A stretch of DNA of 64,000 nucleotides from a phage. Location: the sequence record PZ386975.1; one strand, written 5' to 3'. The notes below the pieces were generated by a model. The model had not been told where the DNA came from. It worked only from the letters and a program-made list of their open reading frames with translations, and did no database searches. The position numbers and the translations under genes were made by a program. Shown here in pieces: positions 53,472-57,052 of this stretch (position 1 is the stretch's first letter; every line of letters starts with the position of its first letter).

Positions 53472-54887
53472 ATGAGCGAATTATTCAAACATGCGCACCT
53501 TCATGCAGGTCGAACTGAAAATGGTGCTGTAAACCATACTTCATCAATGTCTGCTCTTGTAGACTTTTACAAAGCTGCTGGTTCTAGCCGTAGCAATGTA
53601 GAAATCTTACCAGACTTGTTCTACAAAGCTTTGCATGAGGATGTTGATGTTGCAGTTCGTATTTTACTGCATATGCGAGATGTACGAGAAGGTATGGGTG
53701 AGCGTAAAGCTTTCCGAACTGTTTTACTTCAAGCGATTGAAGATAAGATTTTAGAGCCTACACAGGTTCTTCGCATTATGGATAAGATTGCAGAACTTGG
53801 TCGTTTTGATGACTTCAAAATCTTCGTAGGTACTCGTTTTGAGACAGATGCCTTCAAACATTTAGAAGCAGCATTACTAGACCCTGCAACAGCAGGTTTA
53901 GCAGCTAAGTGGTTGCCACGAGTAAAACCACGCCACAAACATTTTGTAAAACGTTTCTGTAAGTTTGCAAACTTAAGCGAGAAAGAGTACCGCACACTGT
54001 TATCTGCACTGTCTGATACGGTTGAGCAAAAAATCTCTGCTAATGAGTTTGGTAAGATTGACTACAGCAAGATTCCTTCACTCGCTGCTGCACGTTACCA
54101 AAAACTCTTTAACCGTAAAGATGGAGAACGTTACAAAGCTTACATCGAATCACTCTCAAAGGGTGAGGCTAAGATTAACGCTGGTGCTGTTTACCCATAC
54201 GATGTGATTAAGTCTATCAAGCATGGTAATGCAGATGTTGCCAATGAGCAGTGGAAAGCACTACCAAACTGGATGGCAGAAGGTGAGAACATTCTGTGTA
54301 TGACCGATGTTTCAAGCTCAATGTCTTGGGTGAATCTTGGTTCAATCACTGCCCTTGATATTGGTGTATCACTTGCCTTGTATGTAGCAGAACGCAATAC
54401 TGGTTGTTTTAAGAATGAGTTAATGGTTTACTCAACAAACCCTCACTTCATCGAACTGAGTGGTGATTTACGAAACCGTCATCGTCAGGTGATGCGTCAT
54501 GTTGAATATGGCTCAACTAACTTACAAGCAGCTTTTGACCGTATTCTTGAGATAGGTAAAAGAAACAACTTGACTCAGAAAGATATGCCAAGTAAGCTTA
54601 TCATCTTCTCCGATATGGAGTTCAATCAGGTTGATGGTGCTAACGGTCGTACAAACTTTGAAGCAATTCAGAGTAAGTACAAAAAAGCTGGATATGAGAT
54701 GCCACAACTGGTATTCTGGTACTTAGCAAACCGTAATGGCACTTGCGAAGTATCTGTTAAGGATAACGGTGTAGCAATGGTATCTGGTTTCTCTCCAGCC
54801 ACTTTAAAAGCTCTGCTTGGTGGTGAGAAGTTTGACCCAATCAGCGTAATGCTCAAAGCAGTAATGATTGACCGTTATATCTGGTAA
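53472..54887 (+). CDS. Ro60/Rsr-like protein (TROVE-like N-terminal region plus vWA domain with MIDAS motif)
   Basis: MTDVSSSMSWVNLGSI (MIDAS DxSxS), GSTN and IIFSDMEFN blocks resemble Ro60 vWA domain as recalled (AVDVSASM...LGSI, GGTD, IVFTDNETF); about 280 aa helical N-terminal region. Confidence 0.5.
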   Translation: MSELFKHAHLHAGRTENGAVNHTSSMSALVDFYKAAGSSRSNVEILPDLFYKALHEDVDVAVRILLHMRDVREGMGERKAFRTVLLQAIEDKILEPTQVLRIMDKIAELGRFDDFKIFVGTRFETDAFKHLEAALLDPATAGLAAKWLPRVKPRHKHFVKRFCKFANLSEKEYRTLLSALSDTVEQKISANEFGKIDYSKIPSLAAARYQKLFNRKDGERYKAYIESLSKGEAKINAGAVYPYDVIKSIKHGNADVANEQWKALPNWMAEGENILCMTDVSSSMSWVNLGSITALDIGVSLALYVAERNTGCFKNELMVYSTNPHFIELSGDLRNRHRQVMRHVEYGSTNLQAAFDRILEIGKRNNLTQKDMPSKLIIFSDMEFNQVDGANGRTNFEAIQSKYKKAGYEMPQLVFWYLANRNGTCEVSVKDNGVAMVSGFSPATLKALLGGEKFDPISVMLKAVMIDRYIW

Positions 54888-54905: not shown

Positions 54906-54934
54906 TTGACAATGTGTTTGATACCCTTTAATAT
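54906..54934 (+). promoter_or_regulatory. sigma70-like promoter upstream of tRNA cluster
   Basis: TTGACA, 17 nt spacer, TAATAT. Confidence 0.5.
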
Positions 54935-55052: not shown

Positions 55053-55129
55053 CTCTGTTTAGCTCAGCTTGGTAGAGCGTTCCGTTTGGGGCGGTAAGGC
55101 CGGAGGTTCAAGTCCTCCAACAGAGACCA
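55053..55129 (+). tRNA. tRNA-Pro (TGG), tentative
   Basis: 7 bp acceptor ctctgtt/aacagag, T-arm ggaggttcaagtcctcc, encoded CCA. Confidence 0.6.
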
Positions 55130-55146
55130 AATTTAAAGGGGTTACT

Positions 55147-55503
55147 ATGAGATTTTTAAAAGAATGTCCAGTTCATGGTTTAACTGAACATAGCATTCAT
55201 AAGAATGGTAACGCCGGTAATAGAGTAAATTGTCTAAAATGTTGTGCATTAAGGACAAAACTTAGAGAGGATGCCAATAGGGAGAAAGCATACAAGTTTT
55301 ATGGCGATAGTTGCAAAATTTGTGGCTATAATAAATGTAAAAATGCTTTAGAATGGCATCACCTTAACCCAAACGAAAAAGAGAATACACCATCAAAAAT
55401 TATGGGTGCATCTTGGGAAAAGGTTAAAAAAGAACTTGATAAATGTGTTTTGCTCTGTGCTAATTGCCACAGAGAGGTTCATAGTGGAATTACAACGGTT
55501 TAA
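55147..55503 (+). CDS. HNH endonuclease inside tRNA cluster
   Basis: CKICG...EWHHLNP...CANCHREVH; start moved to MRFLKE because annotated start overlaps a tRNA. Confidence 0.55.
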   Translation: MRFLKECPVHGLTEHSIHKNGNAGNRVNCLKCCALRTKLREDANREKAYKFYGDSCKICGYNKCKNALEWHHLNPNEKENTPSKIMGASWEKVKKELDKCVLLCANCHREVHSGITTV

Positions 55504-55504
55504 T

Positions 55505-55579
55505 GTCGTAGAAGGCAAATGGTTAGCCACCTGACCTTCAATCAGTTGCTCGCAGGTTCGAATCCTGTCTACGACACCA
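55505..55579 (+). tRNA. tRNA, anticodon possibly TTC (Glu)
   Basis: Acceptor gtcgtag/ctacgac, T-arm gcaggttcgaatcctgt, CCA. Confidence 0.5.
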
Positions 55580-55586
55580 GTTTTGA

Positions 55587-55659
55587 CAGAAGACCAATTA
55601 CAGCAAACTTAATCTTATTCATCTGAAGGTAAATCGGACAAAGAAGAGATTTGGTCTGG
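55587..55659 (+). ncRNA. conserved stem element A (CAGAAGACCA ... TTGGTCTGG)
   Basis: Member of a 4-copy family with covarying closing stem and conserved TACAGCAA. Confidence 0.35.
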
Positions 55660-55670
55660 TCATTAAGAAT

Positions 55671-55747
55671 TGCGGGTATAGAGAAAGGGCGTCTCACATG
55701 TCTCATTAGCATGGTATCGGCAGGTTCGACTCCTGCACCCGCCTCCA
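55671..55747 (+). tRNA. tRNA-Met-like (CAT), non-canonical 1:72 pair
   Basis: Anticodon loop ctcatta, T-arm gcaggttcgactcctgc, CCA; acceptor pairing imperfect. Confidence 0.4.
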
Positions 55748-55753
55748 ATTTTG

Positions 55754-55813
55754 CAGAAGACCGTATTCAGCAACAAACTACTTTTTGCGGATAAAAGAAA
55801 AAACACGGTCTGG
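55754..55813 (+). ncRNA. conserved stem element B (CAGAAGACCG ... CGGTCTGG)
   Basis: Covarying G-C in place of A-T relative to element A. Confidence 0.35.
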
Positions 55814-55824
55814 CAATGTATTAA

Positions 55825-56141: not shown

Positions 56142-56202
56142 ATTTTGAGAGGGCTATTTAGCCCCTCCCTTAAAGGGTTCTTACGAGTATCCTTTAAAGG
56201 AG

Positions 56203-56278
56203 CAGAAGACCAAATACAGCAAGAACGTATGAAAATTTCAAGCCAATTTAATTTTGAAAAATTTAAAACTTGGTCTGG
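56203..56278 (+). ncRNA. conserved stem element C (CAGAAGACCA ... TTGGTCTGG)
   Basis: Same family as A, B, D. Confidence 0.35.
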
Positions 56279-56291
56279 CTCAACAAATTTA

Positions 56292-56422
56292 CAGAAGACC
56301 GTTTACAGCAAAACTTAAACAATCTATTTCTCGGTAAAGAAAAGGCGAAGGTTCGATTCCTTCACTCGGCAGATGTCGAGTTGGTGTAATGGTAGCACTT
56401 AAGATGATAAACAACGGTCTGG
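56292..56422 (+). ncRNA. candidate Y-RNA-like ncRNA (element D) with permuted tRNA-like module
   Basis: Closing stem CAGAAGACCG/CGGTCTGG; internal T-arm gaaggttcgattccttc, acceptor-like hairpin actcggc-agat-gtcgagt, then D-arm-like ggtgtaatggtagcac; no conventional 5' acceptor partner. Confidence 0.4.
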
Positions 56423-56424
56423 TA

Positions 56425-56566
56425 ATTATCTTTGTAGATAAGTTATTAAGCTTACCTGTGAGTATGCGACCACAAAGGGTGAAAGGGTAAATTCTAGATT
56501 TAAACCCAAAAAGGCACATCGCTACAGACCTTAAGCAAGTCTGGGTAGCTTATCTACAAAGATAAT
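56425..56566 (+). repeat. 18 bp perfect inverted repeat enclosing about 106 nt
   Basis: attatctttgtagataag at 56425-56442 and its exact reverse complement at 56549-56566. Confidence 0.6.
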
Positions 56567-56571
56567 TTAAT

Positions 56572-56647
56572 GGAAGTGTAGCAGAATGGTGATGCGGCAG
56601 ACTTTTAATCTGACAGGCGATGGGTTCGAATCCCTCCACTTCTACCA
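56572..56647 (+). tRNA. tRNA-Lys (TTT)
   Basis: Acceptor ggaagtg/cacttct, anticodon loop cttttaa, T-loop ttcgaat, CCA. Confidence 0.55.
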
Positions 56648-56730: not shown

Positions 56731-56805
56731 TGTGGGTTAGCATAAATGGTAATGCAAACGGCTGATAACCGTTAGAAGAGGGTTCGATACCCTCACCTAC
56801 AACCA
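56731..56805 (+). tRNA. tRNA-Ile (GAT)
   Basis: Anticodon stem-loop aacgg ctgataa ccgtt, T-arm gagggttcgataccctc, CCA. Confidence 0.65.
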
Positions 56806-56820
56806 ATTTCAATAAAGTTG

Positions 56821-56849
56821 TTGACATTGAGATGTGACTACTTTATAGT
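56821..56849 (+). promoter_or_regulatory. sigma70-like promoter inside tRNA cluster
   Basis: TTGACA, 17 nt spacer, TATAGT. Confidence 0.55.
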
Positions 56850-57052
56850 AACCTTAGTTTTCGTTGCGTAGCGTCTATTTTGCAAATTTAAAATAAATGC
56901 AAACGACAATGTTTTTCTGGCAGTAGCTTGATAGGCTAAACACCAGTGAGGTCTTCCAATCCCTCATCAAAGAATTTGGCGTACTAGCCCACGGTATGAT
57001 TAATAAAGTGGGCATCTTTAAGGGCTTTCTAAGAGAGTCTTTAAAGATTAAT

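What the first reader, a model, noticed from the sequence alone, without database searches (positions are those of the whole stretch)
56425..56566. Perfect 18 bp inverted repeat enclosing 106 nt inside the tRNA cluster
attatctttgtagataag and its exact reverse complement flank a segment with further internal hairpins, immediately after the Y-like element D. This could form a long stem in RNA or a cruciform in DNA and may be another structured ncRNA or a processing site.
Basis: seen in the sequence. Interest (0 to 1): 0.45.

Follow-up and report, generated by a model that had tools for sequence, protein, structure and literature searches.

The report
Stem-closed structured RNA in tRNA cluster
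The inverted repeat is real and closes a roughly 144-nt folded non-coding RNA that Felix O1-like phages carry inside their tRNA operon; its fold is conserved across three sequence-divergent versions, it matches no described RNA family, and its job, most likely RNA processing plus an unknown binding role, is untested.

Summary
Arms 56424-56447 and 56544-56567 pair over 24 bp (19 perfect). It is the only perfect inverted repeat of at least 14 nt with a spacer of 200 nt or less in the 64-kb window.

The window is a Felixounavirus. The repeat closes a + strand RNA module lying between a YrlA-like 'Y-like D' element and tRNA-Lys(UUU). Relatives carry three sequence types: Felix O1-like; Mooglevirus/Suspvirus and some Felixounavirus; and Hafnia phages. 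All three share one architecture:
- a closing helix of at least 20 bp, kept by compensatory changes and with entirely different sequence in type 3;
- variable inner hairpins;
- a near-invariant 3' hairpin (ACARACC..UUWAGCAA..GUYUG);
- a pseudoknot between that loop and the strand just after the helix, with A/U covariation.

G·U pairs (141, against one C·A) assign it to the + strand. There is no Rfam match and no literature. The overlapping ORF94 is spurious.

My best reading is a processing stalk of two helical turns, an inferred RNase III substrate. It would separate the upstream RNA from pre-tRNA-Lys and release a compact RNA with an unknown ligand.

The gene just upstream encodes a Ro60-fold protein. 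However, the element lacks Y-RNA motifs and persists in a phage without a Ro gene.

The parts
56424..56447 (+). P1 5' strand of the closing helix (AAUUAUCUUUGUAGAUAAGUUAUU). Its first 2 nt overlap the 3' end of the Y-like D stem.
   Evidence: covariation; strand test
56450..56454 (+). J1/2 pseudoknot strand GCUUA, complementary to the loop of hairpin E (UAAGC)
   Evidence: A complement to the E loop lies 0-3 nt after the folded P1 5' strand in every variant (4-7 nt by the script, 8 nt in type 3 if the last P1 pair opens), with A<->U covariation.
56452..56482 (+). Inner hairpin H2. It is variable between types and its 5' strand overlaps the pseudoknot strand by 3 nt.
   Evidence: helix 2 is only partly conserved
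56485..56507 (+). Inner hairpin H3, with conserved apical AUUCUAGAUU (triloop CUA). Shared by types 1 and 2, absent from type 3.
56525..56543 (+). Hairpin E: stem CAGAC/GUCUG, loop CUUAAGCAA. It is near-invariant in all three types and directly abuts the P1 3' strand. Loop nucleotides 56532-56536 (UAAGC) form the pseudoknot.
   Evidence: (stem covaries G-C<->A-U)
56544..56567 (+). P1 3' strand of the closing helix (GGUAGCUUAUCUACAAAGAUAAUU)
56568..56571 (+). UAAU leader. The RNase P site of tRNA-Lys follows at 56572 (inferred). The same ...AAAGAU(N0-2)UUAAU|tRNA junction recurs before tRNA-Arg and tRNA-Leu, with a close variant (AAAGAUUUAA) before tRNA-Gln.
56572..56647 (+). tRNA-Lys(UUU), the downstream neighbour. 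In type 3 phages this position is taken by tRNA-Arg(UCU).
56284..56425 (+). Upstream neighbour, 'Y-like D'. Stem ACAGAAGACCGUU / AACGGUCUGGUAA encloses a permuted tRNA-like domain (T-arm, closed acceptor, D-arm). There is no linker before P1.
   Evidence: read directly from the sequence
53472..54887 (+). Context gene: a 471-aa Ro60/TROVE-fold protein (DUF2828 + DUF7788), on the same strand. Its stop codon lies 1.5 kb upstream of the element.
   Evidence: PMC11482910

Best explanation
The repeat is the closing helix (P1) of a roughly 144-nt non-coding RNA module in the phage's first tRNA operon.

Shown:
- It is a + strand RNA structure under selection. It comprises a 24-bp P1, a multi-way junction with variable inner hairpins, a near-invariant 3' hairpin E stacked against P1, and a pseudoknot between the E loop and the strand just after P1.
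- It lies in one transcription unit, with sigma-70-like promoters at 54906 and 54997, the next at 56821, and no + strand terminator between.
- It abuts the upstream Y-like D stem with no linker and ends 4 nt before tRNA-Lys.

Inferred:
- P1 is kept at >=20 bp, two helical turns, in all types. That is more than end-protection needs, and it is the primary reactivity feature for E. coli RNase III. P1 therefore acts as a processing stalk.
- A staggered RNase III cut in P1 would separate the upstream Y-like RNA from pre-tRNA-Lys, whose short leader RNase P then removes.
- The same cut would release a compact, roughly 120-nt, stem-clamped RNA.
- The sequence-invariant E loop and pseudoknot are then the surface that binds a still unknown partner.

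Likelihoods: selected + strand RNA fold about 0.9; RNase III stalk about 0.45; a trans role beyond processing about 0.5.
For: - Pairing and covariation: P1 is 100% paired in 9 divergent sequences, with 4 double changes and a coordinated base-pair deletion. The covariation score exceeded all 500 shuffles, and slid controls fell to 28-48% paired. Type 3 P1 has unrelated sequence but about 21-28 bp of pairing.
- Strand: 141 G.U against 1 C.A; the + fold is more stable in 35 of 35 variants, by a mean of -6.6 kcal/mol.
- Hairpin E: a 23-nt core is 100% identical between Hafnia phages and Mooglevirus while the flanks are unalignable. Its stem covaries G-C/A-U.
- Pseudoknot: a complement to the E loop lies 0-3 nt after P1 in all variants, GCUUA/UAAGC in type 1, GCUAA(A)/(U)UUAGC in type 2 and UUGCUAAA/UUUAGCAA in type 3. 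Shuffle frequencies were 0.04, 0.05 and 0.0003.
- P1 length: 20-27 bp in all 35 variants. E. coli RNase III substrates typically have two helical turns (PMC1540722).
- Same design elsewhere in the cluster: a 26-nt-arm hairpin ending 5 nt before tRNA-Leu, and 14-nt arms extending the tRNA-Ser acceptor stem to about 21 bp. Erwinia phage tRNA-Met is flanked in the same way.
- Transcription unit: and promoter P45 in PMC3185647.
Against: - There are no transcript, end-mapping or nuclease data, so RNase III involvement is purely inferred. A near-perfect helix could equally mark the RNA for destruction.
- A processing stalk alone does not explain the invariant E loop and the pseudoknot.
- The element is dispensable for phage viability. 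Phage SP116 lost it, together with tRNA-Lys, by T-arm/T-arm recombination. Kolesnikvirus relatives lack it.
- The covariation rests on few independent lineages: three types, with types 1 and 2 homologous. The cmsearch alignment of type 3 leans towards the model structure.
- The predicted H2 helix competes with the pseudoknot for 3 nt in type 1.
Confidence: 0.5

Rival explanations
1. It is a further Y-type RNA, a partner or substrate of the phage's own Ro60-like protein. The 5'/3' stem would present the RNA to the Ro ring as in Y RNAs, and hairpin E would be a reduced copy of the Ro-binding helix of Y-like elements A-D.
For: - The gene ending 1.5 kb upstream on the same strand has a Ro60 fold. 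The top 12 PDB hits are all Ro60/Rsr/phage Ro60, with E about 1e-8 and query-normalised TM 0.37 (Rsr) to 0.64, on a model with pLDDT 87.8. It is 31-34% identical to mycobacteriophage 'Ro-like RNA binding protein'.
- Y RNAs are encoded next to Ro60 on the same strand (PMC4201824).
- The element abuts a YrlA-like element and has a 5'-3' stem around a large structured interior.
- E shares ACAGACC...GGUCUG with the A-D stems ACAGAAGACC...GGUCUGG.
- A GCCGAAG motif occurs in some Mooglevirus versions (L004, L007, L064).
Against: - The window's version has no GNCGAAN0-1G/CGAA motif. E lacks the GAAG part of the A-D motif. There are no T or D arms.
- Hafnia phage Zyzzx has no Ro-like gene anywhere in its genome and no Y-like A-D elements, yet it keeps the element with an invariant E hairpin.
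- There is no Rfam hit at E<=10.
- Bas63 gp130 works without phage RNAs when moved into T7 (PMC11482910).
Confidence: 0.17
2. It is a passive structured spacer. Selection only keeps the long untranslated spacer folded, to avoid Rho loading, RNase E attack or misfolding of neighbouring tRNAs, and there is no specific partner.
For: - The interior differs greatly between types while the overall compaction is kept.
- Many other spacers in the cluster are also hairpins.
- The element is dispensable.
Against: - A passive spacer would not keep a 23-nt hairpin core 100% identical between genera whose flanks no longer align.
- It would not keep a covarying loop-junction pseudoknot.
- It would not hold the helix at >=20 bp in every variant.
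Confidence: 0.17
3. It is a tRNA-derived, tRNA-like RNA: a decayed or repurposed stem-flanked tRNA gene acting as a mimic or decoy. P1 would correspond to an extended acceptor stem, E to the T-arm, and the pseudoknot to the D-loop/T-loop contact.
For: - Types 1 and 2 have a four-way junction with the last hairpin abutting the 3' strand of the closing helix, which is tRNA topology.
- True tRNAs in these clusters are enclosed by the same kind of flanking stem: tRNA-Ser here and tRNA-Met in phiEa21-4.
- The E loop begins CUUU/CUUA, like the tRNA-Lys anticodon loop CUUUUAA.
Against: - ARAGORN finds no tRNA here, and the Rfam tRNA model does not hit the element at E<=10.
- E has a 9-nt loop without the T-loop consensus.
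- Type 3 has more than four helices.
- The resemblance is topological only.
Confidence: 0.08
4. It is a DNA-level feature: a cruciform, a protein-binding palindrome, or a miniature transposon with terminal inverted repeats.
For: The arms are perfect for 19 nt and AT-rich, and the - strand also folds (z = -5.4).
Against: - The substitutions are tolerated as G.U on the + strand only, and would be A.C mismatches in DNA or in the - strand RNA.
- There is one copy per window.
- There is no target-site duplication and no transposase.
- The position is fixed within each lineage.
- The interior also covaries as RNA helices.
Confidence: 0.03
5. It is protein-coding: Felix O1 ORF94, 76 aa on the - strand (56289-56519), or the 33-aa + strand ORF (56389-56490).
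For: ORF94 is annotated in several records and matches phrog_14433 (E = 1.6e-50), a family of unknown function.
Against: - No equivalent ORF exists in type 2 or type 3 loci, although the RNA structure is conserved there.
- The ORF runs antisense through a tRNA-like T-arm.
- The phrog match is to a family of unknown function, and I infer, without checking its membership, that it was built from the same ORF calls in Felix O1-like genomes.
Confidence: 0.02

Closest known systems
Bacterial and phage Y RNAs (YrlA/YrlB; phiLo Yrl1/Yrl2), partners of Ro60/Rsr
   Same: Small structured ncRNA with paired 5' and 3' ends around a large structured interior. It is encoded on the same strand within a few kb of a Ro60-fold gene and sits next to a YrlA-like element with a tRNA-like domain.
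   Different: There is no GNCGAAN0-1G/CGAA motif in the stem and there are no T or D arms. It has its own invariant hairpin and pseudoknot. It is retained in a phage with no Ro gene. No Rfam match.
RNase III processing stalks (flanking-sequence helices of rRNA operons; T7 R1.1-type sites)
   Same: A helix of about two turns, formed by sequences flanking an embedded RNA inside a polycistronic stable-RNA transcript. A cut would mature three neighbours at once (PMC1540722; rRNA and T7 examples from my own knowledge).
   Different: Cleavage is not shown here. The proximal and distal boxes were not evaluated. The embedded RNA is not rRNA or tRNA but a novel fold.
Phage T4 stable RNAs 'species 1 and 2' (rnaC/rnaD) in the T4 tRNA gene cluster (from my own knowledge; not retrieved)
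   Same: Non-tRNA RNAs of roughly 120-140 nt, co-transcribed and co-processed with phage tRNAs, and of unknown function.
   Different: No sequence or structural homology was tested or is expected. The T4 RNAs are not known to be closed by a 24-bp helix.
tRNA cloverleaf and tRNA-like structures
   Same: A closing helix, a four-way junction, a last hairpin abutting the 3' strand, and a tertiary contact of that hairpin's loop with the 5' region.
   Different: It fails the tRNA models. The 'acceptor' is 24 bp, the loop is 9 nt, and the 5' junction strand is 12 nt. Helix number varies between types.
tRNA-precursor spacer RNAs with trans functions, such as the E. coli 3'ETS-leuZ sponge (from my own knowledge)
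   Same: A functional RNA carved out of a tRNA precursor by the tRNA-processing nucleases.
   Different: No target complementarity was found. The tested candidate, the loop of hairpin 57624-57713, does not covary.

Membership tests
Y RNA (YrlA-type, Ro60 partner) | Encoded near a Ro60/TROVE gene on the same strand | tested here: inconclusive
   Met in the window: the Ro60-fold ORF 53472-54887 lies 1.5 kb upstream on the + strand. Not met for the type 3 homologue: Zyzzx has no Ro-like gene in its whole genome.
Y RNA (YrlA-type, Ro60 partner) | GNCGAAN0-1G / CGAA motif in the 5' strand or bulge of the terminal stem | tested here: not met
   Absent from 56424-56567. P1 is an uninterrupted helix without a bulge. 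GCCGAAG occurs only inside some Mooglevirus versions and not in the stem.
Y RNA (YrlA-type, Ro60 partner) | tRNA-like T and D arms | tested here: not met
   No tRNA-model hit within the element at E<=10. No GGTTCGA-type T-loop.
Y RNA (YrlA-type, Ro60 partner) | Binds Ro60/Rsr | not testable with these tools
   Needs RIP or EMSA with the 471-aa protein.
RNase III processing stalk | Double helix of about two turns (>=20 bp) formed by flanking sequences | tested here: met
   24 bp in the window and 20-27 bp in all 35 variants. The criterion is from PMC1540722.
RNase III processing stalk | Staggered cleavage by RNase III in vivo or in vitro; permissive proximal and distal box sequences | not tested
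   No transcript or enzymatic data are available, and the box rules were not applied.
tRNA / tRNA-like | Match to tRNA covariance models or the ARAGORN cloverleaf | tested here: not met
Any Rfam 15 family (ribozymes, riboswitches and sRNAs included) | Covariance-model match | tested here: not met
   No hit to the element at E<=10 (window) or at E<=5 (types 2 and 3).
MITE / terminal-inverted-repeat mobile element | Multiple copies, target-site duplication, presence/absence at precise boundaries | tested here: not met
   Single copy in the window. The only loss seen is a T-arm recombination deletion with different boundaries. There is no duplication at the ends.
Protein-coding gene (ORF94 / phrog_14433) | ORF conserved in homologous loci | tested here: not met

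The most novel reading that the evidence does not exclude
The module is a new class of phage effector RNA. In this reading it is a pseudoknotted, cloverleaf-like RNA, clamped by a two-turn helix, whose invariant E loop (CUUWAGCAA) engages a host factor. Candidates are an anticodon nuclease or another tRNA-targeting defence (it always precedes tRNA-Lys(UUU) or tRNA-Arg(UCU)), or the RNase III / PNPase machinery. Alternatively it is a self-processing RNA that frees its neighbours.
Probability: 0.12. Interest if true: 0.8.

Novelty: new variant of a known kind. Interest (0 to 1): 0.55.

Why it matters
Felix O1 is a classical Salmonella typing and therapy phage, and about 40% of its tRNA cluster is non-tRNA sequence that is either unannotated or mis-annotated as small ORFs.

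This work shows that one such spacer is a selected RNA fold, with a pseudoknot and an invariant hairpin, shared by at least 250 sequenced Ounavirinae genomes. That gives a concrete target for end-mapping, for rnc-mutant experiments and for pull-downs.

It also corrects spurious annotations: ORF94 and phrog_14433, and bas63_0138.

Because the element sits beside a Ro60-like anti-defence gene and Y-like RNAs, it helps to define which RNAs in this locus are and are not candidate Ro partners.

Tried and rejected
- Rfam at permissive thresholds on all three types: nothing.
- Intron or tRNA-Thr reading: the 'tRNA-Thr(GGT)' annotated in REP5 is a 131-nt call spanning Y-like C and D, not this element.
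- Coding reading: the ORF is not conserved.
- MITE or cruciform: single copy, and G.U asymmetry.
- Wider homologues: pattern scans of IMG/VR, metagenomes and GTDB genomes with the E hairpin returned only Ounavirinae-type copies of the three known types plus chance matches without an enclosing stem.
- Trans kissing of the E loop with the loop of hairpin 57624-57713: 7 nt are complementary in type 1 genomes but only 5 nt in type 2 genomes, so there is no covariation.
- Y-RNA membership: the motif is absent, and the element persists without Ro.
- Retron-like a1/a2 reading: rejected without a dedicated test, because no reverse transcriptase is annotated in Bas63.
- Literature searches for any description of this element found none.
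- PhageMaP data for bas63_0138, which overlaps the element, could not be retrieved because no supplements are held.

Full report
**Observation**

The 18-nt sequence and its exact reverse complement are at 56425-56442 and 56549-56566, with 106 nt between them. The perfect run is 19 nt. The repeat finder reports 22-nt arms at 95% complementarity. With G.U pairs, RNAfold closes a 24-bp helix, 56424-56447 / 56544-56567, at MFE -48.3 kcal/mol and z = -5.3.

It is the only perfect inverted repeat of at least 14 nt with a spacer of 200 nt or less in the whole 64-kb window. Markov simulations gave none at 16 or 18 nt.

**Where it sits**

The window is a Felixounavirus. The 152-nt query spanning the element and its short flanks (56420-56571) is 100% identical to Felix O1 AF320576 24704-24855.

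ARAGORN finds 24 tRNAs on the + strand between 55053 and 60308. The element fills the last 144 nt of a 430-nt spacer between tRNA-Asp and tRNA-Lys(UUU).

- Its 5' arm overlaps by 2 nt the 3' strand of 'Y-like D'. That element has stem ACAGAAGACCGUU / AACGGUCUGGUAA around a T-arm, a closed acceptor helix and a D-arm, which is the YrlA layout.
- Its 3' arm ends 4 nt before tRNA-Lys.
- Sigma-70-like promoters lie at 54906 and 54997. The next is at 56821, equal to P45 of the Felix O1 paper. No + strand terminator-like site lies between them. The element is therefore expected to be part of a polycistronic tRNA precursor.

**Comparative evidence**

Three sequence types occupy homologous or analogous positions.

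- Type 1 is in about 190 phage records.
- Type 2 is in about 60 records: Mooglevirus, Suspvirus and some Felixounavirus.
- Type 3 is in two Hafnia phages and 'Listeria' phage LPML1. In the two Hafnia phages it lies directly upstream of tRNA-Arg(UCU) rather than tRNA-Lys; in LPML1 the sequence after the element differs and no tRNA is annotated there.

On a MAFFT alignment of 9 type 1 and type 2 sequences, the RNAalifold structure has 49 pairs, 97.4% paired.

- 9 pairs are changed on both sides, and none of 500 shuffles reached this.
- Slid controls fell to 28-48% paired.
- The outer helix is 100% paired, with 4 double changes and one base pair deleted on both strands together.

The type 3 closing helix shares no sequence with types 1 and 2. 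It still forms about 21 bp with one bulge, and further pairs beyond it.

Across 35 unique variants, P1 has 20-27 pairs. It contains 141 G.U pairs and a single C.A mismatch, and the + strand fold is more stable in 35 of 35 variants. This is therefore a + strand RNA structure, not a DNA cruciform or an antisense RNA.

**Conserved core**

Only three features are common to all types.

1. The long closing helix.
2. A 3' hairpin E that abuts the P1 3' strand. Its core, ACA(A/G)ACC(C)UU(U/A)AGCAA(G)GU(U/C)UG, is 100% identical over 23 nt between Hafnia phages and Mooglevirus, although nothing else aligns. Its stem covaries G-C/A-U.
3. A stretch 0-3 nt after the P1 5' strand that is complementary to the E loop.
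   - Type 1: GCUUA / UAAGC.
   - Type 2: GCUAA(A) / (U)UUAGC.
   - Type 3: UUGCUAAA / UUUAGCAA.
   - The single loop difference (A versus U) is matched in the partner.
   - Shuffle frequencies are 0.04, 0.05 and 0.0003.

This supports a junction-closing pseudoknot.

Types 1 and 2 also share a hairpin with apical AUUCUAGAUU. The remaining interior is variable: a four-way junction in types 1 and 2, and more helices in type 3.

**What it is not**

- No Rfam 15 family matches any type at E<=5-10.
- ORF94 (76 aa, - strand, phrog_14433) has no counterpart in type 2 or type 3 loci.
- The element is single-copy in the window.
- Scans of IMG/VR, metagenomes and GTDB genomes for the E hairpin found no further lineages.
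- It is dispensable. SP116 lost it with tRNA-Lys by recombination between T-arms, and Kolesnikvirus lacks it.

**Context found on the way**

The 471-aa ORF immediately upstream of the cluster (53472-54887, + strand) matches Pfam DUF2828 + DUF7788.

- Its AlphaFold model has pLDDT 87.8.
- Its 12 best PDB matches are all Ro60, Rsr or phage Ro60, with E about 1e-8 and query-normalised TM 0.37 (Deinococcus Rsr) to 0.64.
- It is 31-34% identical to mycobacteriophage 'Ro-like RNA binding protein'.
- This agrees with the PhageMaP preprint. There Bas63 gp130, the same gene, is called Ro60-like, counters the ppl defence, and works alone in T7 (PMC11482910).

The inverted-repeat element itself fails the Y-RNA definition. 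It has no CGAA motif in its stem and no T or D arms. Hafnia phage Zyzzx has no Ro-like gene and no A-D elements anywhere in its genome, yet it keeps the element with an intact E hairpin.

**Mechanism (inference)**

P1 is held at two helical turns in every variant. That is more than end-protection needs, and it is the primary reactivity feature for E. coli RNase III (PMC1540722).

There is no single-stranded linker between Y-like D and P1, so an RNase E-type cut between them is unlikely. A staggered RNase III cut in P1 would do three things at once:

- release Y-like D;
- release a stem-clamped RNA of about 120 nt;
- release a short-leadered pre-tRNA-Lys for RNase P.

The same design recurs elsewhere.

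- A conserved hairpin with 26-nt arms ends 5 nt before tRNA-Leu.
- 14-nt arms extend the tRNA-Ser acceptor stem to about 21 bp.
- Erwinia phage tRNA-Met is flanked in the same way.
- The junction AAAGAU(N0-2)UUAAU|tRNA repeats.

The invariant E loop and pseudoknot imply an additional sequence-specific partner that I could not identify. A candidate RNA partner, the loop of hairpin 57624-57713, does not covary.

**Verdict**

The element is an undescribed, lineage-restricted structured RNA family of a broadly known kind: non-tRNA RNAs and processing stalks inside stable-RNA operons.

My confidence is about 0.9 that it is a selected + strand RNA fold. It is about 0.45 for RNase III processing, and about 0.17 that it is a Ro/Y-type partner.

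Noticed in passing
window 53472-54887 (+): A 471-aa ORF directly upstream of the tRNA cluster is a Ro60/TROVE-fold protein (DUF2828 + DUF7788; AF2 pLDDT 87.8; top PDB hits all Ro60/Rsr/phage Ro60). It equals Bas63 gp130, reported as a ppl-defence counter. The family is widespread in phages, with 710 phage records by tblastn.
   Followed up: yes
window 55579-55670, 55746-55824, 56195-56283, 56284-56425: Four 'Y-like' elements share the 5' strand RCAGAAGACC(N5)CAGCAA and the 3' strand GGUCUGG. The 5' motif is one mismatch from the Ro-binding motif GNCGAAG. Element D carries a permuted tRNA-like domain (T-arm, closed acceptor, D-arm), as in YrlA. Rfam gives no Y-RNA hit. With the adjacent Ro60-like gene, these are strong Y-RNA candidates.
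   Followed up: partly
window 57624-57713: A second long hairpin (26-nt arms, 85% complementary) ends 5 nt before tRNA-Leu(UAG) and is conserved in Felixounavirus and Suspvirus. Its apical loop UUGUUGCUU is complementary to the AGCAA(CAA) motif of Y-like B (8 nt) and to the type 1 E loop (7 nt), but this does not covary in type 2 genomes.
   Followed up: partly
window 57355-57368 / 57457-57470; L124 2902-3004: tRNA-Ser(UGA) is enclosed by 14-nt inverted arms that extend its acceptor stem to about 21 bp. tRNA-Met of Erwinia phage phiEa21-4 is flanked in the same way. These look like possible RNase III-type processing stems around tRNAs.
   Followed up: no
window 56170-56200 and 59198-59225: Two copies of a hairpin with loop UUCUUACGAG: AAGGGUUCUUACGAGUAUCCUU after tRNA-Asp, and AAGGAUUCUUACGAGAGUCCUU before tRNA-His. 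Function unknown.
   Followed up: no
window 55069-55503 and 55505-55576: An ORF with a weak HNH match is inserted between tRNA-Pro and the next tRNA; these two are adjacent in Felix O1. The tRNA at 55505-55576 is found by Rfam (55.4 bits) but missed by ARAGORN.
   Followed up: no
window 56748-56931 and 56863-57052; L009 1330-1518: Sub-threshold Rfam hits to permuted tmRNA / tmRNA (about 30-32 bits against a gathering score of 47) cover tRNA-Ile plus the spacer that holds promoter P45. They are probably driven by the tRNA.
   Followed up: no
upstream of tRNAs at 56572, 57053, 57715, 58957: After long spacers, the tRNA 5' ends are preceded by a hairpin ending ...AAAGAU(N0-2)UUAAU (AAAGAUUUAA before tRNA-Gln at 58957). 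This gives a short A/U leader that I would expect to suit RNase P.
   Followed up: partly
L010 (SP116), L160 (REP5), L163 (Bas63 82748-83022): Annotation and variation notes. SP116 deleted half of Y-like D, the element and most of tRNA-Lys by recombination between GGTTCGATTCC T-arms. REP5 annotates a 131-nt 'tRNA-Thr(GGT)' across Y-like C and D. Bas63 annotates two small - strand CDSs (bas63_0137 and 0138) over Y-like D and the element.
   Followed up: partly
window 58391-58948 and 59337-60134: Two protein genes sit inside the tRNA cluster and belong to families of unknown function: DUF7338 (185 aa) and DUF7217 (265 aa).
   Followed up: no
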